DNA of 64,000 nt, taken from NCBI GenBank assembly GCA_043811005.1, contig JBDRNO010000240.1:467-64466 (forward strand), written 5' to 3'. Positions 2,902 through 61,416 of this stretch are shown here, one piece after another; within the stretch, counting starts at the first letter, position 1, and every line of letters starts with the position of its first letter. Made by a program: the position numbers and the translations under genes. Below the pieces are notes generated by a model. It made no database searches, had not been told where the DNA came from, and worked only from the letters and a program-made list of their open reading frames with translations. This DNA comes from Bacteroidota bacterium. GTDB lineage: Bacteria; Bacteroidota; Bacteroidia; NORP154.

Positions 2902-4653
2902 CTATCTCATACCAGTATTTTCATCAAACAATTTCCCGGGATTTAAGATGCTATTGGGGTCAAAATGCTGTTTTATTGTCTGTAAAATCTTTCTTTCTCC
3001 GGCAGTCAGTTTTTGAAGATACCATTTACGATGGTCTTTACCAATGCCATGATGGTGGCTGATCGCACCCCCATGATCAATGATTGCTTTTGATACAATT
3101 TCCTTAATCTTCAACCATTGGTTCAACTCATTATCTTTTTCCTGTTGTGCCATCAATGTAAAATACAGAGAAGCTCCGGTTTGATAAATATGTGACAAGT
3201 GACAAAAAAGAAGCCCTCCTTTTTCAAAATAATCACTCTCTTTTTTAAGCGAATCTCTAATGTGATGATAAAGGGGTAATAAATCCTTCCAATAGGTTAC
3301 TGTTTCAAACGTATCTATTACAATACGATGTTCTATAAGCGTGTCGCGCAGGTATGGTAATGCAAAACGGTTTTTCTCCCAGTTATCTGAAACAGATGCA
3401 GGAAGCAGCTTTGCCTTGTGAGCTCTTGCGATCTTGGAAGCAACTTTAGATGCAGTTATATCACTCAAATTATTAATGGCAAACCGCATCATCAGAATGC
3501 TGGGATTTTGATATCCTTTTGCTGCTAAATAAGACTTCATCCAGTCTCGGGCAAGTTTTTGAAAACCCTTTTTTTTAGTTTGGCTGAATAGAGACAGCAT
3601 TTTGGTTTCATCAGTATCTGATAACCTGGAGATAGCCGGATGGATACCTGATTGAACAATTTTTTGTAAAGCTGACACTCCGGACTCGAGATCTTTAAAA
3701 AGAGCTACAACCCATTTGTATTTTCCCGGCTTTCGGTGAATACGCATCTTTGCATGGACAATAACACCCAAAGTACCTTCTGAACCGATAAATAACGGAT
3801 GAACATCTATCCCGGAAGCATGCTTTGGAAAATCAGTTTGTTCAATTGTATATCGGGGAGTAACCACTTTTAATCCAAGAACCATATCTTCAATTTTGCC
3901 ATATAGCCCTGATTCCTGCCCTGCCGATCTTGTTGCCAGCCATCCTCCAAGAGTTGAAAATTCGAAGGATTGAGGGAAATGCCCTAAAGTAAATCCCTGC
4001 TCGTAAAGAATTCTCTCGAGTTCCGGGCCATAAATCCCGGCTTCGAAAGTAGCTGTAAGTGAGACAGGGTCAATATCTATCAACCGGTCCATTCTTTTCA
4101 TATTCAAAGAACAAGTCCAATTATCTTCAACTCTACCCATCTGCTCTCTCGATAAAGGGGGGGGAAGTTCCAGCGCGCTGGTGCTCCCTCCCTTCGGGGA
4201 GGGTCGGGGAGGGGCCTCTATTCCTACGGCTCCTGTCACATTGCTGCCTCCACTGAATGTTATTACTGTTATTTGATTCTTCTCAGCTTGCTTAAGGATG
4301 TGAACAACATCATCCACCGATTCGGGGAAAAGAACAAAATCAGGTGCTATTACCTGATCATCAGTAAATATACGGATCGCATCGTGATAGCTCTTTCCAA
4401 AAGCATATCGCAAGCGCTCTTCATTATCAATTGAGAACTGGCTGGGGTTCAATTCAGGAAAAATGGATTTAAAATCCTCTAAAGTGAAGGATGAAACGGT
4501 AAGTGATGAAAGCCGGTCAGGAATTTTAAAATCATCTGCCAATTTTTTTTTCCACTTTTCTTCGAGAAACTGTTTTAATTCAGGAAAATCATTCAAATGA
4601 AAGGACTTTTCAGGGTCACCCCATTTCCACCAGGTTGGCATCATATTACTCAT
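2902..4653 (-). CDS. FAD-linked oxidase, alkyl-dihydroxyacetonephosphate-synthase-like
   Basis: 583 aa with an N-terminal WWKWGDP motif. PCMH-type FAD-binding core (ITFSGGSNVTGAV, GSEGTLGVI) and C-terminal HHHGIG. Carries a GC-rich in-frame insert near 4150-4215. Confidence 0.7.
   Translation of the reverse strand: MSNMMPTWWKWGDPEKSFHLNDFPELKQFLEEKWKKKLADDFKIPDRLSSLTVSSFTLEDFKSIFPELNPSQFSIDNEERLRYAFGKSYHDAIRIFTDDQVIAPDFVLFPESVDDVVHILKQAEKNQITVITFSGGSNVTGAVGIEAPPRPSPKGGSTSALELPPPLSREQMGRVEDNWTCSLNMKRMDRLIDIDPVSLTATFEAGIYGPELERILYEQGFTLGHFPQSFEFSTLGGWLATRSAGQESGLYGKIEDMVLGLKVVTPRYTIEQTDFPKHASGIDVHPLFIGSEGTLGVIVHAKMRIHRKPGKYKWVVALFKDLESGVSALQKIVQSGIHPAISRLSDTDETKMLSLFSQTKKKGFQKLARDWMKSYLAAKGYQNPSILMMRFAINNLSDITASKVASKIARAHKAKLLPASVSDNWEKNRFALPYLRDTLIEHRIVIDTFETVTYWKDLLPLYHHIRDSLKKESDYFEKGGLLFCHLSHIYQTGASLYFTLMAQQEKDNELNQWLKIKEIVSKAIIDHGGAISHHHGIGKDHRKWYLQKLTAGERKILQTIKQHFDPNSILNPGKLFDENTGMR
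4157..4203. repeat. GC-rich hairpin block inside CDS (G8 run, CCAGCGCGCTGG palindrome, CCCTCCC-TTCG-GGGAGGG stem-loop)
   Basis: Read directly: G8 at 4157-4164, 12-nt palindrome at 4170-4181, perfect 7-bp stem with a 4-nt loop at 4186-4203. Translated in frame as PPRPSPKGGSTSALELPPP. Confidence 0.8.
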
Positions 4654-4722
4654 TTTTTTCTGCTATTACGAATGAACTCTGTGTGACTCTGTTTTCTCTG
4701 TGAACCCTGTATTAAAATCAAT

Positions 4723-6324
4723 TTAAATTCCCTTTAGCTGCTCATCCAATGGTCTGTTCGTATTTCCTTCTTTCTCAGGTATTAACGACATTGCATATTC
4801 ACTTAATGAAGTGATAGTAAGGGCGGGATTGACACCAAGGTTGCAGGGCATAATTGAACCGTCCAGGATATACATATTGGAATAGCCGAAAGCTTCAAAT
4901 TTTTCATTCACAACACCTTCCTCTTTCGTCCTTCCCATTGGGCAGCCACCGAGGATATGGGCGGTTGATGACATATTAAATAAAACTTCTGTAAGCGCAT
5001 TTTGGGATATGCCGTTTACTTTATTAGCATACCTGTGCATTACTTGTTGACCAACGTCAATATAAGCAGGCACCCGGTTTTCCTTTTTATTCCATATTGA
5101 AATTCGGGAAAAAGGAAAACGCTTATAAACCATTTTCATTGAACTATCAAGTGATTGCATTACCAGGAAAATTATGGATTTATGCGCCCATTTTTTATCA
5201 AACAACAGTTTCAGGAACCTGAAAGGATTCTTTAAAATATTAAGTAGTAATTTTAAACTACGAATTACCGGATGCCCCGATCCTGTTGCTAATGTTGCAA
5301 ATAATTTCATTGTATTGGAACCATCGGGGTATTTAACGATCTCAATATGTGTATTTTCATCCGGATTAAATACTGAAGATATCGCTATTCCGTGATTAAG
5401 CTTTTCACCGGAGCTCGTCACTCCGCAAAGGGTCTCTGAATTGGTCCTGAGATTTTCACCGAGCTTTTCGGATAATCCTGTTAGGGTTTTATATTTATAT
5501 TTCTGTTTTAGCAACAGGTCCATTGTTCCGAGAACACCTCCTGAAACAACCAGCCCATTACTAACGTATTTTTTCTTATTCCGTTTAAACCATGATGTAC
5601 TGGAATGAGTATGGATGATGTAACGGTCGTCAATGTATTCAACCCGTTCAACCATCCGTTCCGCTTCTATCTGTACTCCGAAATTTTTGGCGAAGAAAAG
5701 ATAATTCTTATCAAGAGTATTCTTGGCATTCTGCCTGCAACCGACCATACAACCGGCACTTTCATCACAACCTTTACGTTTTGGCCCCAACCCTTTGAAG
5801 TAAGGATCAACTTCCTTTTCAGTATCGCCAAAATAAATACCCACATCCACTCCTTCAAAAGAAGATTCACGCCCCATATCTATTGCTACTTCCTTTAGAA
5901 CTTCATCTGCACGGTCAAATGTTTTGTTTTTTGTTGTCCCAAGCATAAATCGGGCTTTTTCATAAAACGGGATTAAAATTTCTTTCCAATCTTTGAAATG
6001 CGACCAGACGGGATTATTGAAAAATTCATCGGGAGGGAACATGTGGGTATTGGCATAACCCAAGCTGCCCCCTCCTACTCCAACTCCGCTTAGGATAAAA
6101 ACTTCCTTAAAAAAAGATAGCTTTAGAAACCCGAACCATTTGAGCGGAGGAGCCCAAAAATATTTACGAAAATTCAGGTTTGTTTTCGGGAAATCTTCAT
6201 TTCTGTATTCTTTACCTTTTTCAAGGACTAAAACACTATACCCTTTTTCTGCAAGCCGTAGTGCGGATACTGAGCCGCCAAATCCCGACCCAATCACAAT
6301 ATAATCATAAATTTTTTCAGTCAT
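4723..6324 (-). CDS. GMC-family FAD oxidoreductase (cholesterol-oxidase-like)
   Basis: YDYIVIGSGFGGSVSALRLAEKGYSVLVLEKG Rossmann motif near the N-terminus and a GMC C-terminal block DGSIMPCNLGVNPALTI. I prefer the ATG at 6324 over the TTG at 6348, which lies inside a palindrome. Confidence 0.75.
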   Translation of the reverse strand: MTEKIYDYIVIGSGFGGSVSALRLAEKGYSVLVLEKGKEYRNEDFPKTNLNFRKYFWAPPLKWFGFLKLSFFKEVFILSGVGVGGGSLGYANTHMFPPDEFFNNPVWSHFKDWKEILIPFYEKARFMLGTTKNKTFDRADEVLKEVAIDMGRESSFEGVDVGIYFGDTEKEVDPYFKGLGPKRKGCDESAGCMVGCRQNAKNTLDKNYLFFAKNFGVQIEAERMVERVEYIDDRYIIHTHSSTSWFKRNKKKYVSNGLVVSGGVLGTMDLLLKQKYKYKTLTGLSEKLGENLRTNSETLCGVTSSGEKLNHGIAISSVFNPDENTHIEIVKYPDGSNTMKLFATLATGSGHPVIRSLKLLLNILKNPFRFLKLLFDKKWAHKSIIFLVMQSLDSSMKMVYKRFPFSRISIWNKKENRVPAYIDVGQQVMHRYANKVNGISQNALTEVLFNMSSTAHILGGCPMGRTKEEGVVNEKFEAFGYSNMYILDGSIMPCNLGVNPALTITSLSEYAMSLIPEKEGNTNRPLDEQLKGI

Positions 6325-6338
6325 TTTATCTTTAATAT

Positions 6339-6371
6339 AACTTTCCAAAAGTTTAAAACTTTTGGAAAGTT
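6339..6371. repeat. perfect palindrome AACTTTCCAAAAGTT-TAA-AACTTTTGGAAAGTT (15-bp arms)
   Basis: Read directly. The same 15-bp arms occur at 36347-36380 inside the iorA-fusion CDS. Confidence 0.9.
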
Positions 6372-6489: not shown

Positions 6490-7887
6490 TTATAAATCAA
6501 CTTTTTGTAAGGGAGTAACTCTGTTAACAATCTCAAAAGCTGCGGTACTTTCAGATTCAAAAACTTCTACCTTATTTGTCCTCAAATCGGTTAATTCTAT
6601 TTTTAACGCAGCCAGCTTACTGTTGTAGCACCAGAGCTTAGAGTCATCAGTATCGGTATATTCCACAAGAGCTACCTTCCCGGGTGAAGTGGCGATCCCT
6701 TTAAGAGTTGCTGTTGAAGATTTAGCCATAAATTCCCATTTACCTTCACCAAATTCAGATTGAGCGGTGAATAACTTTATCGTTGATGAGAACTCATATC
6801 TTCGTTCACCAACAATGAGAATAAATGAAGAGAGTGGAGGTGTAACTTTGCCGCCTAATTTGATCCGGGCAGACAGTCCTTCAAAGATCACGTTGTCATG
6901 CCCTTTAAAATTATTGCAATGCGCCCATGCCCATGAGTGTGCGCTTTTTTTGCCGTATATATGACCTATCATGCCGGGTTTGTCTTCAATATTAATTGAT
7001 TCCGATCCATTTATAATAGTCCCTGAAAAACGCAGGTCAAGGAAACAGGCGCTATACGTGCTTTTTGCTACATGCAGGGTTTTTACAAAAGGTGGTACAT
7101 GCTCAAACCGGTGGCCATTATCCTTAAACTTAAGATCCCACGAAATACCATCGGCTTGACCAATTGCATTGGCTCCGTCAAGGTGAGCTTTCCCGATGTG
7201 AAAGACCTGGGACAGATCCTGAAACCGTTGTAAATCTTCATTATCCGGAATGATAACACAGTTGGATGGAGCCAGATCACTTAACTTCCAGGTTTGTTTT
7301 CCCACTGCTACATTATCATTATCAAAAAGTAATGCCCATGTACTTGCTTCTTTTTTTACTCCGTCAAGGATAGTATAGCGGAACCATAAAGCCCTGCCTG
7401 GTGAGAGATCAATTTTCCCAAACCAAACTTCATAATGGGGAAATTTCGCGGGCAGAATACGTGCAAATTCCCTGACAAGCCCTTCAGTCACTACAGATGG
7501 ATAAGTTATGAATAGAGTAAACGCTACAAATCCATCAACAACGGCACAAAGAAGCCAGGCAGGACCGCTTGATATAGCAAGTACTATAAATCCAATAACA
7601 CTTATGGTCTTTGCAATAAGAAGCGTTACATAAGGAGCTTTTCGTTCAGGATACCGGGCACTTGTTCCTGCCAATAGCACTAAAGCGCCCATAAGTGAAA
7701 TGGAAAGAACATACCAGAGATTGCCGGTTGGAACCAGGATATCACCGCTCAGTCCAAGAAAGCCAGAAACTGTAATAAGCCATTTGCCCAATTGTGCAGG
7801 GATAGTTATAAACAAGATGCCAACGAATAAAAAGGCAACACACCAGGTTTTAGCAACTTTTGAATATAATTCAGGGTTTTTCTTCAT
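6490..7887 (-). CDS. hypothetical membrane protein (N-terminal TM helices plus soluble C-terminal domain)
   Basis: 465-aa ORF with a hydrophobic N-terminal ~140 aa. No family recognised with confidence; ..HSWAWAHCNNF.. only weakly resembles tocopherol-cyclase-type motifs. Confidence 0.5.
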   Translation of the reverse strand: MKKNPELYSKVAKTWCVAFLFVGILFITIPAQLGKWLITVSGFLGLSGDILVPTGNLWYVLSISLMGALVLLAGTSARYPERKAPYVTLLIAKTISVIGFIVLAISSGPAWLLCAVVDGFVAFTLFITYPSVVTEGLVREFARILPAKFPHYEVWFGKIDLSPGRALWFRYTILDGVKKEASTWALLFDNDNVAVGKQTWKLSDLAPSNCVIIPDNEDLQRFQDLSQVFHIGKAHLDGANAIGQADGISWDLKFKDNGHRFEHVPPFVKTLHVAKSTYSACFLDLRFSGTIINGSESINIEDKPGMIGHIYGKKSAHSWAWAHCNNFKGHDNVIFEGLSARIKLGGKVTPPLSSFILIVGERRYEFSSTIKLFTAQSEFGEGKWEFMAKSSTATLKGIATSPGKVALVEYTDTDDSKLWCYNSKLAALKIELTDLRTNKVEVFESESTAAFEIVNRVTPLQKVDL

Positions 7888-13451: not shown

Positions 13452-13510
13452 GGAGGTAGAAAAATGAGTGTATTGATGCTGGGTGCTGGATATTGGATGG
13501 TAAAATTATT

Positions 13511-13583
13511 GAATTGCTAAATTGTTGAATTGTTAAATTGCTAAATTGTTGAATTGTTAAATTGCTAAATTGTTAAATTGTTA
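13511..13583. repeat. tandem repeat, 24-nt unit GAATTGTTAAATTGCTAAATTGTT (about 3 copies)
   Basis: Read directly. Lies in the 340-bp spacer between the small and large subunit genes. Confidence 0.85.
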
Positions 13584-24528: not shown

Positions 24529-24711
24529 ATTTAATAATCAGATTCTGGGTTCCAGGCACTGGGTTCTGGGTTGTTGTTTTTTACTCTAACCCAAAATCAG
24601 CACATACCACCCAGTGCCCAGCAACCAGTACCCAGCAACATTATCTTATTTATACTTAACTCAATTCAATATAATTTCTATTCTTAATTAAATTACGTAA
24701 TTATGTTCTTA
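24529..24711. repeat. intergenic repeat family 1, copy A (CTGGGT/ACCCAG hairpin plus TTATTTATACTTAACTCAATTC plus TTACG.A.TTATGTTCTTA)
   Basis: Alignable end to end with 61222-61384. Shares exact blocks ACATACCACCCAGT and the 22-mer TTATTTATACTTAACTCAATTC (24646-24667 and 61319-61340). Confidence 0.85.
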
Positions 24712-25491
24712 TTTCTTCTCATCCTGATAAATTCCATAAGCTTCTTCAACGGATTTTCCATCATGAACAATTGCCCTCACTGCCTTTATCATGCCTACCG
24801 GGCAATCGCTTTGGAAAATATTCCTTCCCATATCCACTCCAACCGCTCCTTTTGAAATAGCATTAAATGCCATTTGGAGAGCATCTTTTTCCGGCTGTTT
24901 CTTGCCTCCCGCAATAACAACCGGTACGTTTCCACATGCCTCGACAATCTTTTCAAAATCCTCACAATAATATGTTTTAACCATATGTGTTCCTGTTTCC
25001 ACACATATTCTGCTGGCTAGAGCTAAATACCGTGCATCCCTTGCCATTTCTTTCCCAACAGCCGTTACCGCTAAGACGGGAATACCATATTCTTCGCCAT
25101 CATTTATGAGCTCTGATAAGTTTTCTATGGATTGGCTTTCATATTCCCCGCCAATAAATACGGAACATGTTATGGCAGATGCGTTTATCCTTATTGCATC
25201 CTCTATTGAAGTGGTAATTATCTCATCAGACAATTCTTTAAGAATACTCGAACCACCGGAAACGCGTAATATTACAGGTGCTTGCAAGGCAGGGTTTATC
25301 CAGTTTCTTAATGCTCCCCTGGTTATCATTAATGCATCAGCGTAAGGCAGTAACGGATCTGTTGTAACACTCAGGTTGCTTAAACCCGTTGTTGGCCCCT
25401 GGAAATACCCATGGTCAACTGCCAGCATAACACAATGACCCGTTTCAGGGTTAATTATCCTTGATAATCTGTTTTTCATTCCCCATTCCAT
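24709..25491 (-). CDS. DhnA/LsrF-type class I aldolase family protein
   Basis: MLAVDHGYFQGPTTGL, VKTYY and IAGGKK patterns, 260 aa. Confidence 0.7.
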   Translation of the reverse strand: MEWGMKNRLSRIINPETGHCVMLAVDHGYFQGPTTGLSNLSVTTDPLLPYADALMITRGALRNWINPALQAPVILRVSGGSSILKELSDEIITTSIEDAIRINASAITCSVFIGGEYESQSIENLSELINDGEEYGIPVLAVTAVGKEMARDARYLALASRICVETGTHMVKTYYCEDFEKIVEACGNVPVVIAGGKKQPEKDALQMAFNAISKGAVGVDMGRNIFQSDCPVGMIKAVRAIVHDGKSVEEAYGIYQDEKK

Positions 25492-25592
25492 TTTATTTTC
25501 CTCCTTTATTGTATTATTTTTTTATTAATTTTTTTGTAAGATTTTGAGTTTTAGTGATTTTGTGGCATTTTTATTTTAATAAATTTACGAAG

Positions 25593-33492: not shown

Positions 33493-36400
33493 TCACGAAG
33501 TTAAGTTCTTCTTCTCCACCCACTGAATTGACCTGTTCGGGCAAACGTCAATACACAATCCGCATAGGTTACATATAGTTTCATCTATCACGACCTTTGC
33601 ATCTACTTTTGTCATAGCGGGACAGCCGAAGTTATCAATACAATGATTGCACCAGTAACATGCCTGGTAAAGGTCGAATTGCTGTAATTGTTGTGAAATA
33701 TTTTGGGTTATCTCATTAATCCGAATATCATTCGGATCTACATTTATCCGAATATTATTCGGGTTTACTTTTGATCGAATATTATTCGGACTTACATTTA
33801 GCTTATCTAAGGCATCCTGTCCTTCATAAGCAATTGAATAATCCTCCAGCAATTGCCTAATACCTATTGCTGCTCTTTTGCCGCTTGCAATAGCCCCAAT
33901 GACGCTTATATGGTTTCCTGAACAAGCATCACCTGCTACGAACACCACTGGTTCCGACTGTATCTGCCCCTCTCTCTTCGGTACGACCTGGCTCAGGGTG
34001 GGCTTTTTATATTTTACAAGTCCGTTTTTCTTCTCAATTTTTATTCTTATGTCTTTATCAAATTGCAAAGAATTGATGCCGCTAAAAAGTGTCTTATCCC
34101 CTCTTTGCCCTATTGCCACTATCACATAATCGCATACGATTTTTTGCAAATGTTTTTTGGTTTTAAAAGAACTTAATTTAAAACTAATCTTACCATCAGC
34201 TTTTACCGGGCAGTGTTCAACAAAGCTGTCAGGAACTAATTCGATACCTTCCTCCACAGCATGTTCAATTTCTTCGGCAAAAGCGGGCATTTCTTCAGTG
34301 GTTTCAATGCATGAAACGATAACTCTATTTTTGCTATCCAGCCGTTTTGCCGTTCTCGCAGCATCAATGGCGCTGTTGCCGCCACCTATCAATAAAATTG
34401 AGGAAGCGGGATTCAACTCAAGGGTTTTAAAATAATATTCCCTCAAAAAAGAGAGTGCATCAAACCGTTTCTCACGGGGAATATTCTCTTCAATAATATC
34501 AAGCGTTAATGATTTCGGCATACCTGTTGCCAGTATCACACCGTCATATTTCCCGGTTAATTTGTCAAGAGAGATATCTTTCCCCAGGGAGATGTTATAT
34601 TTAAACTTCACACCTAATTCGCCGAGCTGGGATACTTCAAAGTCAAACCCTTTCTTATCCATACGAAAATCAGGAATAGCATACCTGATAAGCCCCCCTC
34701 CTTGTTTTTCCTTTTCAAAAACTGTTACCTTATAGCCGGCTTGGATAAGGTCATAAGCAGCGCTTAGCCCAGCAGGTCCTGCACCGACTATGGCGATATC
34801 TTTATTTTTCTTTTCAGATGACTTAACGCGTTCTTTGAGAGCGGAAAAATCATAAAAATTCTCATCAATTGAAGATACAAATTTCTTCAATTGCTTAACA
34901 GGTACGACCGGGCCGGTCTCTTTCCCTGTATACAATTCACAGGGACGGTGGCAAATGTCACCACATGTTCGGGCAAACAATATCTTATCCTTAACGATCT
35001 CGAGAGCAGATTTGTAATTTCGATCCATAATGGAATAAAAGAAACTGTGATTACAGATGTTTGCAGGGCATGGCTGCATTTCGCCGGGGATCGAGTACTC
35101 AGCGCTTATTTTTGCTTTTGCCCTTCTCAAATTGCTCCCGGGAGAGTATGTTCTTGAGCATGGCAATGTGTGGTCAAGGTGATTGCCACAATTGGTACAG
35201 AGGTTATGGTCAACAGTGATAATAGCATTTTTCGGGATCTTAGTTTTATGATCAGGATGAAAAATGCAAGGTGATGTGGATACGATCACAGAGACGCCTT
35301 TTACCAAACTGGCATCCCTGATCTTTTCATAGCTGTTTTTCACATCAAACGGATCAATTGTTTCCACATATTGAATCCCCATTCCTTTTAAGAGAGGGGG
35401 AATGTCAATTTCCCGGTATTTGTCAGAGCGGGAAGCTCCGGGATGGTCCTGTCCTCCTGTCATTCCGATTGTACGGTTGTCAAAAATGACGACCATGATA
35501 TTTGCATTAGTATATACGGCATTCATCATGGATGCGATACCTGAGTGGAAGAATGTGCCGTCACCGATAAGGGCTATGGTTTTAGCCCCCCCCCACTTAC
35601 CCGATGTGGAGGAGGAACATAGGGCTTCGGAAAGACCCTGTGCCATGGAGATGCTCATTCCCATGTGGTGAATGGTATCTATCATCTGAATTGGTGGCAG
35701 GGCGCCTAAGCCGAAACAGCCAATGTCACCGCATAGTACTACATTATTGTTATCACGTGGGATGGATAATTTCAAAGCATAGAATGTTGCTCTGTGCGGA
35801 CAACCAGGACAAAGTGAAGGTGGGCGGGGTGGCAGGATAACCTCTCCCACTCCAGACAGGGCAGGGACAAGCGACACCTTCTCCGGGGGAGGGTGGGAGA
35901 GAGAAACAACCGGTGGAAGTTCTTTCTTCCGTTTTAACGGTTGCCCGACAAACTCCTCAACAGCTTGTTTCACAATGTCAATGGAAAATTCGCCAGTGGT
36001 TGCAAGGGAAGAAAATCCTTTACCGAAAATATTGCAATCAATATTATGTTTTTGTGCAATAACGCGCACCTGATCCTCAACTATTGGATCTAATTCCTCA
36101 AGAACTAATATGCGTGGCACGGCTTGAAGCCGTGTCATGCTTTTTTCGGTTTCTAATATGCGTGCCACGGTTTGGAACCGTGTCACGCTTTTGAGAAAAG
36201 GAATGACATTATTTTCAGGAAATGGATGGATCAATCCCAATTTTAAAACTTTAATCTTCCCTGTGAGCTTGTTATCGTACAAAATCTCAGAAAGATAAAC
36301 AGATGAAACACCGCTGCTTATAATACACAGAGAAGGTAAAAATTTCAACTTTCCAAAAGTTTTAGAACTTTTGGAAAGTTCTATATTATGTTTTTCAAAA

Positions 36401-37143
36401 AAAGGAGTAATTATATTGCTGTATAGCTTTTCCAATAACTTTTGATGTGCTGTGGCAGTGCGGGCAGGGATGTTTATATGTCCGGGCATTTTTTCAAATT
36501 TGCCTGGCTGGTTATTAAAAGAAAACTCATTGTAAAAAACCATTCCCCTGCTATGTGACACCCGTGTGGTCATCCTGACTATTACCGGGAGCTTAAGTTT
36601 CCCGGAAAGCACAAAGGCATCCTTTGTCATTGAATAGGCATCCTCGGGAAATGCAGGATTAAAGACAGGTACTGATGCCATCTTTCCCCAGTAGCGGCTG
36701 TCCTGTTCGTTTGAACTGGAATGGCAGCCAGGATCATCGCAGACAACAATGACCAAAGGAGCACAAATCGTCTGGTAGGTAATGGACATCAATGGGTCGG
36801 AAGCGACATTCATCCCCACATTTTTCATACAGCACATTGCACTTTTGTTACCTATGGTATAAGCAATGGCTTTCTCCAAAGCAACTTTTTCGTTTACACT
36901 GTACTCAAAATAAATTGGATTTGATGTCAGTTCAGGAAATTTCTTTTTGTGTCCGGGGTCATTTTGAAATTCACTGACATGATTAAATACCTCAGAAATT
37001 TCAGTAGAAGGGGTGCCTGGATAAGCAAAAACGCCCTGAACCCCGGCTTCAATTGCCCCCCTGGCAATCGCTTCGTTACCGATCGGACAAGTCTTTTGGG
37101 GTTTTTTATAGGAGGTTAGTATTTTGATTATTTTGTCGAACAT
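33493..37143 (-). CDS. iorA: indolepyruvate:ferredoxin oxidoreductase alpha subunit with an inserted GltD/NfnB-like FAD/NAD(P) oxidoreductase module and C-terminal 2x[4Fe-4S] domain
   Basis: N-terminal IorA TPP domains (GVFAYPGTPSTEI; GDIGCFGLG...IGDGTFFHSG...GMTGGQ). The middle is GltD-like (CGDICHRPCE; IAIVGAGPAGLSAAYDL; LLIGGGNSAIDAAR; VFVAGDA). The C-terminus carries CNLCGLCIDVCP. There are four in-frame hairpin/repeat inserts. Confidence 0.75.
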   Translation of the reverse strand: MFDKIIKILTSYKKPQKTCPIGNEAIARGAIEAGVQGVFAYPGTPSTEISEVFNHVSEFQNDPGHKKKFPELTSNPIYFEYSVNEKVALEKAIAYTIGNKSAMCCMKNVGMNVASDPLMSITYQTICAPLVIVVCDDPGCHSSSNEQDSRYWGKMASVPVFNPAFPEDAYSMTKDAFVLSGKLKLPVIVRMTTRVSHSRGMVFYNEFSFNNQPGKFEKMPGHINIPARTATAHQKLLEKLYSNIITPFFEKHNIELSKSSKTFGKLKFLPSLCIISSGVSSVYLSEILYDNKLTGKIKVLKLGLIHPFPENNVIPFLKSVTRFQTVARILETEKSMTRLQAVPRILVLEELDPIVEDQVRVIAQKHNIDCNIFGKGFSSLATTGEFSIDIVKQAVEEFVGQPLKRKKELPPVVSLSHPPPEKVSLVPALSGVGEVILPPRPPSLCPGCPHRATFYALKLSIPRDNNNVVLCGDIGCFGLGALPPIQMIDTIHHMGMSISMAQGLSEALCSSSTSGKWGGAKTIALIGDGTFFHSGIASMMNAVYTNANIMVVIFDNRTIGMTGGQDHPGASRSDKYREIDIPPLLKGMGIQYVETIDPFDVKNSYEKIRDASLVKGVSVIVSTSPCIFHPDHKTKIPKNAIITVDHNLCTNCGNHLDHTLPCSRTYSPGSNLRRAKAKISAEYSIPGEMQPCPANICNHSFFYSIMDRNYKSALEIVKDKILFARTCGDICHRPCELYTGKETGPVVPVKQLKKFVSSIDENFYDFSALKERVKSSEKKNKDIAIVGAGPAGLSAAYDLIQAGYKVTVFEKEKQGGGLIRYAIPDFRMDKKGFDFEVSQLGELGVKFKYNISLGKDISLDKLTGKYDGVILATGMPKSLTLDIIEENIPREKRFDALSFLREYYFKTLELNPASSILLIGGGNSAIDAARTAKRLDSKNRVIVSCIETTEEMPAFAEEIEHAVEEGIELVPDSFVEHCPVKADGKISFKLSSFKTKKHLQKIVCDYVIVAIGQRGDKTLFSGINSLQFDKDIRIKIEKKNGLVKYKKPTLSQVVPKREGQIQSEPVVFVAGDACSGNHISVIGAIASGKRAAIGIRQLLEDYSIAYEGQDALDKLNVSPNNIRSKVNPNNIRINVDPNDIRINEITQNISQQLQQFDLYQACYWCNHCIDNFGCPAMTKVDAKVVIDETICNLCGLCIDVCPNRSIQWVEKKNLTS
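33721..33789. repeat. 3 x 27-bp tandem repeat, each unit carrying the palindrome CCGAATAT[CT]ATTCGG, in frame in CDS
   Basis: Palindromes at 33721-33735, 33748-33762 and 33775-33789. Period is 27 nt, or 9 codons. Translated as SPNNIRSKVNPNNIRINVDPNDIRIN. Confidence 0.9.
35842..35901. repeat. GC-rich inverted repeat CTCTCCCAC...GTGGGAGAG in frame in CDS
   Basis: 9-bp perfect arms plus TCC/GGA, with a ~34-nt spacer. Translated as LSHPPPEKVSLVPALSGVGEV. Confidence 0.8.
36105..36200. repeat. 2 x 48-bp tandem repeat, each with hairpin CACGG[CT]TT[GT]GAA[GA]CCGTG, in frame in CDS
   Basis: Units start at 36105 and 36153 with the same CTAATATGCGTG. Hairpins at 36118-36134 and 36166-36182. 48 nt equals 16 codons. 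Confidence 0.9.
36347..36380. repeat. perfect palindrome AACTTTCCAAAAGTT-TTAG-AACTTTTGGAAAGTT in frame in CDS
   Basis: 15-bp arms identical to the intergenic copy at 6339-6371. Translated as ELSKSSKTFGKLKF. Confidence 0.9.
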
Positions 37144-45087: not shown

Positions 45088-45133
45088 AAAACATGAAGTG
45101 AAATAATTACCTGCGTGAGGGATGGGAGCGACA

Positions 45134-45275
45134 TCCTTTTGTCTGGCTGGCTTAGTTTTGTTGATTTACTCACTCTATTGTTTGTTTTTAAAGGTGTTCG
45201 TGAATGCTTCGCATTTTGAGGGGCGACAGGGGAGCCACGAAAAATCTTTACAAAACTTGCCAGCCAGACAAAAGA
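45134..45275. other. GC-elevated structured element: 16-17-bp perfect inverted repeat enclosing about 108 nt with internal hairpins (possible ncRNA or MITE)
   Basis: CCTTTTGTCTGGCTGGC (45134-45150) pairs with GCCAGCCAGACAAAAG (45259-45274). Inner stems are TTCGTG/CACGAA and AATGC-TTC-GCATT. Confidence 0.5.
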
Positions 45276-45368
45276 TATAGCGGACAGCCCGGCCCCGCAC
45301 ATAATTTTGGTGCTTAAAATTTCATCTGCCAACTGATATGTTACAGATAATTATGATAATGTTAATTG

Positions 45369-56236: not shown

Positions 56237-56731
56237 CTAATCTCTTTTTTTAATGGGAGTAGCATCCTTGGTCACTTTTTTTAGCGGAACAGTTTCTTCT
56301 TTTACGGGAACTGTCTCTTCTTTTGGCTGAACAGGTTTAGGTTCTACTGTTCCTTTGATTGTTAATTTTTTGCTTGGTGTTATAGCATTTGATGTGATAG
56401 TTATTGGTTTGGTGAATTGTCCAACCCGAGTAGTTGTGTATTTTACTTTAATTATGCCTGAATCACCTGGCATAATGGGTTCTCGTGGCCAACTGGGCAC
56501 GGTGCACCCTCATGTCCCCTTTGCATTCGAAATAATTAACGGCTCTCTTCCTGTGTTAGTGAATTTGAATTCACGCTCACCATTACTGTTATATTCAATA
56601 GTGCCGTAATCAATTACTTCTGTTTCAAAAACAATTTCAGGGGCATTGATATTTTCCTTTGTCGCTTCCTGTGCAGAAACTCCATAAAACACACACAGGA
56701 ACAACACTGAAATTAACAGTACTTTTTTCAT
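56237..56731 (-). CDS. DUF1573 domain lipoprotein/secreted protein with in-frame TGA (candidate selenocysteine) at 56510-56512
   Basis: ORFs 56510..56731 and 56237..56500 are in the same frame, separated only by TGA GGG TGC ACC. The joined sequence reads ..PLIISNAKGT-[TGA]-GCTVPSWPREPIMPGDSG.. against the family pattern SCGCTVP.WP..PI.PG. Confidence 0.6.
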
Positions 56732-57128
56732 CTTTTTTGGTTTTTAACGCCTGCTTGCTTTCGCGTAGTTTCAGCGAAGCAAAGTCGGCAGAAATGGTTA
56801 ATAAAATTGGTTAACTAATTTAGTAAAAAAAAACAGCAATTAAATCCCTTTATGCTTTAAATAATTATCAAAACATAAGTTGCAGGGGGAAAGAAAATTA
56901 TGAAAGCATTTCATATACCCGGCAAAATTACAAATTTTGTTTTTCTTTAGAATAAAACAATAAAAAAAATTGACAAAATCAAATTTTGCAATTTGCATTA
57001 TGTTTTTATTTAATCAACCTAATAAAGCAAGAATCAACAACACCCCACCTATAATAAGGATAATTATTATATCTCATATATTATCAGGCACTTTCCCCTT
57101 CCAGTTCATAATGTATTTTTATGATTAG

Positions 57129-57602
57129 TTACTCTTTTTTAATAGGAGTAGCACCCTCAGTTACTTTTTTCACCGGAACCGTCTCTTCTTTTGGCTGCAC
57201 GGGTTTAGGTTTTACTGTTCCTTTGATTGTCAACCTTTTATTAGATGTTTTGGCATTTGATGTGATAGTTATTGGTTTGGTGAATTGTCCAACCCGCGTA
57301 GTCGCATATTTTACTTTAATTATACCTGAATCACCTGGCATAATGGAATCTCGTGGCCAACTGGGCACGGTGCACCCTCATGTCCCCTTTGCATTCGAAA
57401 TAATTAACGGCTCTTTACCTGTGTTGGTGAACTTGAATTCACGCTCACCATTACTGTTATATTCAATAGTGCCGTAATCAATTACTTCTGTTTCAAAAAC
57501 AATTTCAGGAGCATTTACATTATTTTCCTTTGTCGCTTCCTGTGCAGAAGCTCCATATAACATACACAGGAACAACCATGAAGTTAACATTACTTTTTTC
57601 AT
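57129..57602 (-). CDS. DUF1573 domain paralog with in-frame TGA (candidate selenocysteine) at 57378-57380
   Basis: Same architecture as 56237..56731. ORFs 57378..57602 and 57129..57368 are in frame, 9 nt plus the TGA apart. Confidence 0.6.
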
Positions 57603-57930
57603 CTTTATTGGTTTTTAAAACCTGCTTGTTTGCTTTCGCGTAACTTCTGCGAAGCAAAGTAAACAGATATGGTTAATAAATTGGTTAGTTAATTTAGTAA
57701 AATTCGTCACAATTCTTCTATCTCTTCAATCATATGAACTTATGCATCATATACAACGTAATCGCTATCAGTACAACGAAAATTTTTATTAAAGTTTTAA
57801 TTTGCTCCTTTTTCATAATTCAATATAAGTCCAATTAAAGAATTGCTGTTATCATAATAAACAGCAATAAAATTCCCCCTATAATTTGAACAGCTATCAA
57901 ACCACAGGAAAAAAGGTAGAAATAAAATGG

Positions 57931-61221: not shown

Positions 61222-61384
61222 TTTAATAATCTGTTTCTGGGTTCTGGGTTTTATACTCAGACTCCGTAACCAGTACATACCACCCAGTACCCAGTTACCA
61301 GTACCCAGTAACATTACTTTATTTATACTTAACTCAATTCTAAATAATTTCTTTTTTAAATCACTTTACGAAGTTATGTTCTTA
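61222..61384. repeat. intergenic repeat family 1, copy B
   Basis: See 24529-24711. Confidence 0.85.
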
Positions 61385-61416
61385 TACTTGCAATTATTTA
61401 AGTAAACAAGAACAAT

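What the first reader, a model, noticed from the sequence alone, without database searches (positions are those of the whole stretch)
36347..36380. The same perfect 15-bp-arm palindrome occurs once in intergenic DNA and once translated inside the iorA fusion gene
AACTTTCCAAAAGTT-(TTAG)-AACTTTTGGAAAGTT at 36347-36380 lies inside the 1216-aa ORF and is read as ..ELSKSSKTFGKLKF... An identical pair of arms with loop TAA lies at 6339-6371, just upstream of the likely GMC oxidoreductase start. Two identical 15-bp inverted arms at unrelated loci imply a mobile or copy-pasted hairpin element that can sit in coding sequence without breaking the frame. This resembles the Rickettsia palindromic elements (RPEs), which are known to insert in frame in protein genes.
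Basis: partly seen in the sequence, partly recalled or inferred. Interest (0 to 1): 0.65.

Follow-up and report, generated by a model that had tools for sequence, protein, structure and literature searches.

The report
REP-type mobile hairpin inside a gene
The two identical palindromes are copies of a 33-base selfish hairpin repeat (a REP-type element, apparently copied by a dedicated tyrosine transposase) found across Bacteroidota, and one copy sits in frame in a flexible loop of an enzyme gene; this behaviour is already known for such repeats.

Summary
The arms AACTTTCCAAAAGTT / AACTTTTGGAAAGTT lie at 6339-6371 and 36347-36380.

The first copy is intergenic, 14 nt upstream of the GMC oxidoreductase ATG. 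The second is in frame in the 1216-aa IorA/GltD-like gene.

The palindrome belongs to a dispersed repeat family. The unit has a sharply bounded 15-bp stem and a free loop (3 nt in 88% of copies), so it is usually 33 nt, or 11 codons. Flanks are unrelated.

Copies sit mostly just downstream of genes. About 6-9% lie inside real genes, in frame.

In related loci the hairpin directly flanks a ~200-aa HUH/Y1 protein. Its best match is "REP-associated tyrosine transposase" (RAYT), and its only PDB match is E. coli TnpA_REP. Of 80 further homologues, 52 are flanked by hairpins with the same architecture but lineage-specific sequence.

It is therefore a REP/REPIN-type element. Membership of the Rickettsia RPE families is not.

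REP-RAYT systems and in-frame REPs are published, so this is a new member of a known kind. It is atypical in having no GTAG/CGTC foot and self-palindromic arms.

Side observation: this RAYT is often embedded in type II CRISPR-cas operons.

The parts
6339..6371 (.). REP-type hairpin, copy 1. It has 15-nt arms and a TAA loop (effectively a 16-bp stem with a 1-nt loop). It is intergenic, between two minus-strand genes.
   Evidence: As single-stranded DNA it folds at -14 kcal/mol, z = -7.3. It lies 14 nt from the downstream ATG and 118 nt from the upstream stop codon.
36347..36380 (.). REP-type hairpin, copy 2. It has 15-nt arms and a 4-nt loop (TTAG on the plus strand, CTAA on the coding strand). 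It is translated in frame as (E)LSKSSKTFGK(L), residues about 255-266 of the host protein.
   Evidence: As single-stranded DNA it folds at -14.5 kcal/mol, z = -6.9. The peptide is absent from 119 homologues. The encoded segment is a low-confidence coil in the AF2 model.
33493..37143 (-). Host gene of copy 2: an intact 1216-aa fusion of an IorA-like TPP enzyme with a GltD-like FAD/NAD(P) oxidoreductase and 4Fe-4S domains.
   Evidence: ORF, translation, Pfam. Homologues are 1107-1288 aa and 51-57% identical.
4723..6324 (-). GMC-family oxidoreductase gene. Its start codon lies 14 nt downstream of copy 1 on the minus strand.
   Evidence: Pfam GMC_oxred_C scores E = 5e-15.
6490..7887 (-). Upstream same-strand ORF (465 aa, no NCBIfam match). 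Its stop codon lies 118 nt before copy 1, so copy 1 sits in a tandem-gene spacer.

Best explanation
The palindrome is a member of a dispersed REP/REPIN-type repeat family of Bacteroidota.

**The unit.** It is a 33-nt hairpin: a 15-bp stem plus a loop that is usually 3 nt. It is built from two inverted copies of a 15-nt self-palindromic module, AACTTT-CCA-AAAGTT.

**Inferred mechanism.** The family is the cognate DNA of a roughly 200-aa HUH/Y1 'REP-associated tyrosine transposase' (RAYT) encoded elsewhere in such genomes. By analogy with E. coli TnpA_REP and IS200/IS605 TnpA, the enzyme would recognise the folded hairpin in single-stranded DNA, cut and rejoin next to it, and so copy it to new sites.

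**The two window copies.** Most copies land just downstream of genes. Because the unit is 11 codons long and its arms contain no stop codon in any frame, some copies survive inside genes when they land in a loop that tolerates extra residues.
- Copy 1 is an ordinary intergenic copy.
- Copy 2 is such an in-frame survivor. It lies in the variable linker between the first two domains of the IorA-like enzyme and adds a net 8 residues.

**Shown and inferred.**
- Shown: family membership, sharp element boundaries, genomic distribution, the physical REP-RAYT linkage in related genomes, and the insertion-like length difference.
- Inferred: catalysis by the RAYT, and that the window's own genome encodes one.
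For: - **Dispersal.** The exact core occurs 125 times in 118 loci from 53 species-level assemblies with unrelated flanks.
- **Boundaries.** Positions -1/+1 outside the 13-nt core are complementary in 112 of 124 copies, including 15 compensatory C:G or G:C pairs. Positions -2/+2 are complementary in 115 of 124. Positions -3/+3 are complementary in 22 of 124, which is chance level. The loop is free in sequence and is 3 nt in 109 of 124 copies.
- **Unit of repetition.** There are 133 doublets against 19 single arms.
- **REP-like placement.** Counts are 25 convergent, 53 tandem and 8 divergent. Among all neighbouring gene pairs in these loci the background is 82, 398 and 84. The median distance is 37 nt to a facing 3' end and 99 nt to a facing 5' end.
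- **RAYT linkage.** ORF clustering of the loci found a roughly 200-aa family bracketed by the hairpin within 12-160 nt: both sides in L039, L041 and L101, one side in L026. It matches NCBIfam NF047646 'REP-associated tyrosine transposase' at E = 1e-16 to 1e-21. Its only PDB match is 4ER8, E. coli TnpA_REP, at E = 2.4e-7. The HUH motif (NHxH) and the YIHxNP motif are conserved.
- **Reciprocal test.** Of 80 further homologues from metagenomes, 52 have a flanking hairpin of the same X6-N3-X6' doubled architecture, 20 of them on both sides. The sequence is lineage-specific, for example AAACCTCCAAGGTTT, AAACCTGACAGGTTT and AACTTTGACAAAGTT. The window's exact sequence occurs only next to some of the closer RAYTs. 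In the 64-kb window only the two copies fit this architecture, and none fit in 20 shuffles.
- **In-frame copies elsewhere.** These lie in an alpha-2-macroglobulin, a histidine kinase (HATPase_c), an IcmF-like MeaB-mutase, an FGGY kinase and a PMT_2 glycosyltransferase. In 27 of the 80 homologue loci a copy lies inside the RAYT ORF itself.
- **The window gene.** All 20 aligned homologues lack 8 residues here, and none of 119 homologues has the peptide. In the AF2 model residues 256-271 are coil, with pLDDT below 50 at 259-264, between confidently predicted strands.
Against: - No RAYT gene lies in the 64-kb window (tblastn), and the rest of the genome was not available.
- Only two copies are present in the window.
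- The RAYT-like proteins score below NCBIfam's curated cut-off (60-76 bits against 80) and only weakly on Pfam Y1_Tnp.
- The hairpin lacks the GTAG/CGTC foot of classical REPs.
- Copy 2 is 34 nt, not a multiple of three, and the net length gain is 8 rather than 11 residues. A simple one-step insertion needs an originally shorter linker or an accompanying indel.
- In the FGGY-kinase example, orthologues 88-92% identical carry unrelated low-complexity sequence of the same length at the site. That is not a clean filled-versus-empty pair.
- Transposition was not demonstrated.
Confidence: 0.8

Rival explanations
1. It is a host-selected functional hairpin acting in RNA or DNA, for example as a transcript 3'-end stabiliser, a terminator or a translational modulator. 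On this view it is kept for its function and not because it is mobile.
For: Copies cluster 2-30 nt downstream of stop codons and are enriched between convergent genes. The RNA hairpin is stable, at -17 to -19 kcal/mol. Classical REPs are reported to have such roles (PMC3733652).
Against: - There is no T-run after the stem at copy 1.
- A function in RNA does not need an identical stem sequence at hundreds of unrelated loci in 53 assemblies.
- It does not explain copies inside ORFs.
- It does not explain the self-palindromic arms or the bracketing of RAYT genes.
- This reading is compatible with the main explanation as a secondary effect.
Confidence: 0.1
2. It is an operator: two adjacent 15-bp palindromic binding sites (AACTTT-N3-AAAGTT) for a dimeric transcription factor that regulates the neighbouring genes.
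For: Each arm is a perfect 6-N3-6 palindrome. Copy 1 lies just upstream of a start codon.
Against: - The spacing between the two half-elements varies from 1 to 10 nt.
- Most copies face 3' ends of genes, and only 8 of 86 lie between divergent genes.
- Neighbouring genes are functionally unrelated.
- Copies occur inside ORFs.
- The two central triplets are always mutually complementary (CCA/TGG). Independent operators would not require that.
Confidence: 0.03
3. It is a member of the Rickettsia palindromic element (RPE) families, or a MITE derived from a transposon with terminal inverted repeats.
For: Like RPEs, it occurs in frame in protein genes.
Against: - It is 33 nt, whereas the best-known in-frame RPE, RPE-1, is a longer palindromic insertion (PMC3733652).
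- 51 of the 53 assemblies are labelled Bacteroidota, one Ignavibacteriaceae and one unclassified; none is Rickettsia.
- The flanking bases are complementary rather than directly repeated, so there is no target-site duplication.
- There is no internal sequence beyond a 1-5 nt loop.
- The short intragenic RPE-4 and RPE-6 are classed as tetranucleotide-tagged REPs (PMC3733652). This element has no such tag.
Confidence: 0.02

Closest known systems
REP/REPIN elements with their REP-associated tyrosine transposases (RAYT, TnpA_REP). Examples are E. coli REP with YafM (PDB 4ER8) and Pseudomonas REPINs. The closest described RAYTs are subclasses 2.4 and 2.6 of Quentin et al. 2018 (PMC6006769), which occur in Bacteroidetes.
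   Same: - It is a short palindromic repeat dispersed mainly downstream of genes.
- It brackets a single HUH/Y1 transposase-like gene.
- Hairpin sequence changes with the RAYT lineage.
- The unit is a doublet of two inverted modules that forms a long hairpin, which is the REPIN logic.
[quoted passage not shown]
- In-frame copies occur in unrelated genes, as in PMC3733652.
   Different: - There is no GTAG or CGTC foot.
- The stem is A+T-rich and perfectly paired.
- Each arm is itself a 6-N3-6 palindrome.
- The spacer between modules is only 1-5 nt.
- The RAYT has F-[IS]..N where E. coli TnpA_REP has the W-Q..R residues reported to contact the GTAG guide (PMC6006769).
- The identical stem sequence is found in many families of one phylum.
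- None of the searched 9-10-nt cores of these hairpins occurs in the REP tables of PMC6006769.
Rickettsia palindromic elements (RPE)
   Same: Both are palindromic repeats found in frame inside genes that still appear functional.
   Different: Size, sequence and host phylum all differ. RPEs have no known dedicated transposase, whereas this family is physically linked to a RAYT gene.
IS200/IS605 subterminal hairpins and their non-autonomous derivatives (PATEs)
   Same: In both, hairpin DNA is recognised by a Y1 HUH enzyme, and there is no target-site duplication.
   Different: This element has no left and right ends enclosing a transposase or TnpB gene. The repeated unit is the hairpin alone. 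The associated gene is RAYT-like and is not a close match to IS200 TnpA: Pfam Y1_Tnp scores are marginal.

Membership tests
REP/REPIN-RAYT system | A short (about 20-40 nt) palindromic unit repeated at many unrelated, mostly extragenic sites. | tested here: met
   The unit is 33 nt. There are 2 copies in the window and 125 in 118 loci from 53 assemblies. About 91% are extragenic.
REP/REPIN-RAYT system | A cognate RAYT (HUH/Y1) gene flanked by copies of the repeat. | tested here: met
   This is met in related genomes. L039, L041, L101, L138 and L142 have the hairpin (in L138 the G/C compensatory variant) on both sides of the gene, and L026 and L119 on one side. Of 80 homologue loci, 52 have a hairpin of the same architecture. 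It could not be tested for the window's own genome, because no RAYT lies in the 64 kb.
REP/REPIN-RAYT system | RAYT catalytic motifs: HUH, and a catalytic Tyr within Y-x-x-x-N-P. | tested here: met
   Alignment A3 shows LMPNH[LF]H and YIH[SAF]NPV invariant. The profile matches 4ER8. Scores are below NCBIfam's cut-off.
REP/REPIN-RAYT system | A conserved GTAG or CGTC tetranucleotide at the foot of the hairpin. | tested here: not met
   The foot is AA/TT, with AG/CT or AC/GT variants. Sequence beyond the 15-bp stem is random. Published Bacteroidetes subclass 2.6 REPs are also described as 'atypical' (PMC6006769).
REP/REPIN-RAYT system | A placement bias towards 3' ends of genes and towards convergent or tandem spacers. 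| tested here: met
   convergent spacers make up 29% of the copies that have a gene on each side, against 15% of all neighbouring gene pairs. The median distance is 37 nt to 3' ends and 99 nt to 5' ends. Gene calls were heuristic.
REP/REPIN-RAYT system | Mobility: presence or absence differs between close relatives, and the RAYT cleaves the hairpin. | tested here: inconclusive
   FGGY orthologues 88-92% identical lack the hairpin but carry other sequence of equal length. Biochemistry cannot be tested with these tools.
Rickettsia palindromic elements (RPE) | Membership of a defined RPE sequence family in Rickettsia genomes. | tested here: not met
   All hosts are Bacteroidota apart from one Ignavibacteriaceae and one unclassified assembly. 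The unit is 33 nt. No sequence comparison with RPE consensus sequences was run.
MITE (TIR transposon derivative) | Terminal inverted repeats enclosing internal sequence, flanked by a target-site duplication. | tested here: not met
   The loop is only 1-5 nt. The flanking bases are complementary, not direct repeats.
Rfam RNA families | A match at or above a family's gathering score. | tested here: not met
   Nothing matched at the two sites or in 7 related loci. Only chance miRNA-hairpin matches appeared, far below cut-off.

The most novel reading that the evidence does not exclude
The hairpin could mark an undescribed RAYT clade with four unusual properties.
- It has no GTAG foot, and the RAYT lacks the W-Q guide-contact residues.
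- Its REPIN is a minimal 11-codon module whose arms are stop-free in every frame, so it colonises ORFs, including the RAYT's own gene.
- The hairpin keeps an identical sequence across many families of Bacteroidota.
- The transposase gene is recurrently embedded in type II CRISPR-cas operons: between cas9 and cas1 where cas9 is visible (L039, L101, L161), or between cas1 and cas2 (L148).

The last point could mean a functional link with CRISPR adaptation, not just a tolerated landing site.
Probability: 0.15. Interest if true: 0.7.

Novelty: new member of a known kind. Interest (0 to 1): 0.4.

Why it matters
- **Annotation.** The 11-12 odd residues in the IorA-like enzyme, and similar LSKS.KLLES, TFQKF.TFGK or TFGKF.TFQKF peptides in other Bacteroidota proteins, are repeat-encoded loop decorations. 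They are not functional motifs or sequencing errors.
- **Assembly.** Contigs often end at these hairpins, as in L054, L065 and L070.
- **A system to study.** This is a clear, sequence-defined REP-RAYT pair in Bacteroidota, where published descriptions speak only of 'atypical secondary structures'. It offers a simple test of how a Y1 enzyme recognises a hairpin without the GTAG guide.
- **The CRISPR link.** The RAYT is repeatedly found beside type II cas1 and cas2. If that is more than a tolerated landing site, it would be the more interesting lead.

Tried and rejected
- **Source contig.** Looking up the contig through the exact protein found nothing on record, so the rest of the genome could not be searched.
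- **Rfam.** Gathering-threshold searches on the window and 7 loci, and a permissive search around copy 1, gave no family for the hairpin.
- **Literature.** A full-text search for the arm sequences gave only chance primer and gene matches. A search of the REP tables of PMC6006769 for six 9-10-nt cores of these hairpins gave none.
- **Viruses.** The exact core is absent from 2.9 million viral contigs, so there is no sign of phage carriage.
- **RAYT in the window.** tblastn found none.
- **Target-site duplication.** Rejected, because the flanking bases are complementary and belong to the stem.
- **Clean insertion of 11 residues.** This was not found in the FGGY-kinase test case. Close orthologues have equal-length, non-palindromic low-complexity sequence there.
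- **Link to the CRISPR repeat.** Rejected. The arrays in L010 and L148 have period-76 units (repeat plus spacer) whose repeat is unrelated to the hairpin.
- **Stop-free arms as an adaptation.** For this variant the property would arise by chance about 14% of the time (my own rough estimate). Other variants such as AAACCTGACAGGTTT do contain stop codons.
Full report
**1. Observation**

AACTTTCCAAAAGTT-TTAG-AACTTTTGGAAAGTT lies at 36347-36380. The same arms with loop TAA lie at 6339-6371.

Allowing 2 mismatches, the 15-mer occurs only at these four arm positions in 64 kb. The shuffle expectation is 0.67, and 0 of 100 shuffles reached 4 matches.

Copy 1 really pairs over 16 bp with a 1-nt loop. 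Each arm is also a palindrome in itself, AACTTT-NNN-AAAGTT.

As single-stranded DNA the two copies fold at -14 and -14.5 kcal/mol, with z-scores of about -7.

**2. Local context**

Copy 2 lies in the intact minus-strand ORF 33493-37143. This ORF encodes 1216 aa: an IorA-like TPP enzyme fused to a GltD-like flavoprotein and ferredoxin domains. The copy is read as (E)LSKSSKTFGK(L). Because the loop is 4 nt, the two arms are read in different frames.

Copy 1 lies in a tandem-gene spacer on the minus strand. It is 118 nt after the stop codon of ORF 6490-7887 and 14 nt before the ATG (6324) of a GMC oxidoreductase. No T-run follows it.

A Flavo-1 RNA and the protein homologues place the window in Bacteroidota.

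**3. Is copy 2 an insertion?**

Homologues of the fusion protein are 51-57% identical and mostly 1110-1170 aa.

In an alignment with 20 of them, the window protein has 8 extra residues exactly at the palindrome. The site is a length-variable linker between conserved blocks. None of the 119 homologues contains the encoded peptide.

Removing 33 nt leaves an open frame (..HNIVKFLPSLCIISSGV..) whose linker is 3 residues shorter than usual. An 11-codon gain is therefore compatible with the net gain of 8. This step is my inference from the sequence.

An AF2 model of residues 1-480 has a mean pLDDT of 77. In it, residues 256-271 are coil, with pLDDT below 50 at 259-264, between confidently predicted strands. 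That is a place where extra residues should be tolerated.

**4. The family**

I scanned one genome per species (GTDB) for CTTTCCAAAAGTT-N0-10-AACTTTTGGAAAG. These hold 125 copies from 53 assemblies: 51 labelled as Bacteroidota lineages, one Ignavibacteriaceae and one unclassified 'bacterium'.

The Bacteroidota lineages are Saprospiraceae, Raineyaceae, Cytophagales, Bacteroidales, Sphingobacteriales, Chitinophagales, Flavobacteriales and others. Up to 15 loci come from one MAG.

Flanks are unrelated between loci. The element boundary is sharp:
- The two positions outside the searched core are complementary in 112 and 115 of 124 copies, including 15 compensatory C:G or G:C pairs.
- The third position outside is complementary in 22 of 124 copies, which is chance level.
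- The loop is free in sequence and is 3 nt in 109 of 124 copies.

The unit is therefore 15+3+15 = 33 nt, or 11 codons.

Doublets outnumber single arms 133 to 19. Some MAGs nest the core in longer, genome-specific palindromes. Several contigs end at the hairpin, as expected for a repeat.

The core is absent from 2.9 million viral contigs and from Rfam.

**5. Placement**

I used heuristic gene calls. Of 127 copies:

| Context | Copies |
|---|---|
| Between tandem genes | 53 |
| Between convergent genes | 25 |
| Between divergent genes | 8 |
| Intragenic | 12 |
| At locus edges | 29 |

Among all neighbouring gene pairs in these loci, the counts are 398 tandem, 82 convergent and 84 divergent.

The median distance is 37 nt to a facing 3' end, with many copies at 2-28 nt, and 99 nt to a facing 5' end. 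This is the pattern published for REPs (PMC3733652). Copy 1 of the window is unusual in lying closer to a start codon than to a stop codon.

**6. Other in-frame copies**

Eight copies, including the window's, lie in stop-free stretches with at least 60 codons on each side. Pfam places domains on both sides of the copy, or shows it interrupting a domain, in five proteins:
- an alpha-2-macroglobulin
- a histidine kinase (HATPase_c)
- an IcmF-like MeaB-mutase
- an FGGY kinase
- a PMT_2 glycosyltransferase

The usual peptide is LSKS[SL]KLLES.

I followed the FGGY case further. Two orthologues carry the hairpin. Orthologues 88-92% identical instead carry unrelated, non-palindromic low-complexity sequence of the same length. 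More distant orthologues are 1-3 residues shorter at that site. That site is a hypervariable loop and does not give a clean filled-versus-empty pair.

**7. The associated gene**

Clustering all ORFs of the 118 loci gave a roughly 200-aa family directly bracketed by the hairpin:

| Locus | Gene | Hairpins |
|---|---|---|
| L039 | 496-1074 | 440-470 and 1086-1115 |
| L041 | 4543-5175 | 4466-4494 and 5265-5293 |
| L101 | 2399-2980 | 2240-2268 and 3012-3040 |
| L026 | 3880-4479 | 4501-4529 |

The family matches NCBIfam NF047646 'REP-associated tyrosine transposase' at E = 1e-16 to 1e-21 and 60-76 bits, below the 80-bit cut-off. It matches Pfam Y1_Tnp only weakly.

A profile of the four proteins finds a single PDB entry, E. 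coli TnpA_REP (4ER8), at E = 2.4e-7. The HUH motif (LMPNHxH) and YIHxNPV are invariant.

Where E. coli has I-W-Q-P-R-F, these proteins have L-F-[IS]-x-N-F. Residues W94, Q95 and R104 are reported to contact the GTAG guide (PMC6006769). Their replacement fits a hairpin that has no GTAG foot. This link is an inference.

**8. Reciprocal test**

A metagenome scan with that alignment gave 568 relatives, of which the best 80 were fetched.

Of these, 52 have a hairpin of the same doubled architecture within 260 nt of the gene: X6-N3-X6', a short loop, then the complement. In 20 loci it is on both sides, and in 27 one lies inside the RAYT ORF. The same search finds only the two copies in the 64-kb window and nothing in 20 shuffles.

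The sequences are lineage-specific. Examples are AAACCTCCAAGGTTT, AACCCTCCAAGGGTT, AAACCTGACAGGTTT, AACTTTGACAAAGTT and AAACTTACGAAGTTT.

The window's exact sequence flanks only a few of these RAYTs (L119 and L142). An arm-swapped form flanks L120 and L121, and a G/C compensatory form flanks L123 and L138.

Co-variation of hairpin sequence with transposase lineage is the published hallmark of REP-RAYT pairs (PMC6006769).

**9. Mechanism**

Shown here:
- a sharply bounded, dispersed hairpin family
- its physical linkage to a RAYT-type gene
- REP-like placement
- in-frame survival in loops

Inferred from E. coli TnpA_REP and IS200/IS605 biochemistry: the Y1 enzyme binds the folded hairpin in single-stranded DNA and cuts and joins beside it, which spreads the unit.

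The conserved self-palindromy of each arm suggests that the true module is the 15-mer and that the 33-mer is a minimal REPIN, that is, an inverted dimer with a 1-5 nt spacer. Quentin et al. note that such forms can arise by central deletion in an inverted REP dimer.

The window itself has no RAYT. I could not determine whether its genome has one.

**10. Comparison with what is known, and novelty**

- REP-RAYT systems are established, including Bacteroidetes subclasses with 'atypical secondary structures' and subclass 2.4 with in-frame REPs inside the tnpA_REP gene (PMC6006769).
- Intragenic in-frame REPs in many proteins are also published, and the short intragenic Rickettsia RPE-4 and RPE-6 are counted among tagged REPs (PMC3733652).
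- I found no description of this particular sequence family. It is atypical in having no GTAG/CGTC foot, an A+T-rich perfect stem, self-palindromic arms, and an identical sequence across many families.

I file it as a new member of a known kind.

**11. Side observations**

The same gene carries two more in-frame palindromic repeat insertions that its homologues lack:
- Two 48-nt units at 36105-36192, each with a GC-rich 13-bp hairpin.
- About 3.3 palindromic units of 27 nt at 33710-33798.

The RAYT of this family lies within 1.5 kb of type II cas1 and/or cas2, mostly directly upstream, in 13 of the 80 metagenome loci. The same is seen in L039 and L101, and in L010 the hairpin lies directly upstream of cas1. 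Bona fide CRISPR arrays lie nearby in L010 and L148. I found no paper reporting this.

**12. Verdict**

The element is a REP-type repeat, and one copy has survived in frame in a tolerant linker. Interest is moderate to low for the window finding itself. The CRISPR-adjacent RAYT is the lead most worth following.

Noticed in passing
window 36105-36192: There are two tandem 48-nt units inside the same IorA-like gene, in frame. Each contains a GC-rich 13-bp hairpin, GCGTG[GC]CACGG[CT]TT..AA[GA]CCGTGTCA[TC]GC, with an RNA mfe of -23 and -18 kcal/mol. They encode SVTRFQTVARILETE/KSMTRLQAVPRIL, a 21-residue segment absent from 20 homologues. This looks like a second, different palindromic insert. No copy was found in the fetched loci.
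   Followed up: partly
window 33710-33798: There are 3.3 tandem 27-nt units near the 3' end of the same gene. Each is a palindrome, TCCGAATAT[TC]ATTCGGA. They are translated as ..NPNNIRINVDPNDIRIN.. in a region that varies in length among homologues.
   Followed up: partly
L039 1-2720; L101 77-3922; L010 6592-7997; L122, L123, L137, L139, L148, L154, L155, L158, L161, L164, L166, L171, L172: The RAYT-like gene of this hairpin family sits inside or beside type II CRISPR-cas operons. Usually it lies directly upstream of cas1-cas2, with cas9 seen upstream in L039, L101 and L161. In L148 the order is cas9-cas1-RAYT-cas2. This holds for 13 of 80 RAYT loci from metagenomes, plus L039 and L101. In L010 the hairpin is seen beside cas1 but the locus ends there. 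CRISPR arrays with period-76 units (repeat plus spacer) lie nearby in L010 and L148. I found no report of this association in the searchable literature.
   Followed up: partly
L039 696-728; also L101, L119, L123, L142 and 27 of 80 RAYT loci overall: The RAYT genes themselves carry an in-frame copy of the hairpin between the HUH and Tyr motifs. In the L039-type genes it is the arm-swapped form, AACTTTTGGAAAGTT-N3-AACTTTCCAAAAGTT, with peptide TFGKFETFQKF. The same feature is described for TnpA_REP subclass 2.4 in PMC6006769.
   Followed up: partly
L199 and L200 (FGGY kinase orthologues), loop after DFYK: At the site where L074 carries the hairpin, orthologues 88-92% identical carry equal-length simple-sequence tracts: CTCAAAACTCAAAACTTAAAACTCAAAACT or CCCAATCCTCAATCCCCAACCCTCAATCCT. 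The site is a hypervariable coding loop whose origin is unexplained.
   Followed up: partly
window 45105-45298: A Flavo-1 RNA (Rfam RF01705) matches at 43.8 bits against a gathering score of 42, on the plus strand.
   Followed up: no
window 13503-13583: There are ten tandem copies of the octamer AAATTGTT. The tract is also seen as 3.3 copies of a 24-nt unit.
   Followed up: no
window 56290-57680: A segment is duplicated in tandem with a spacing of about 870 nt. The aligned blocks are 84-91% identical: 300 nt, 111 nt and 57 nt.
   Followed up: no
window 24595-24712 and 61268-61385: A 118-nt direct repeat, 85% identical, occurs 36.7 kb apart. It contains CCAGT-rich heptamer runs, and related 59-nt copies lie at 25565 and 60215.
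   Followed up: no
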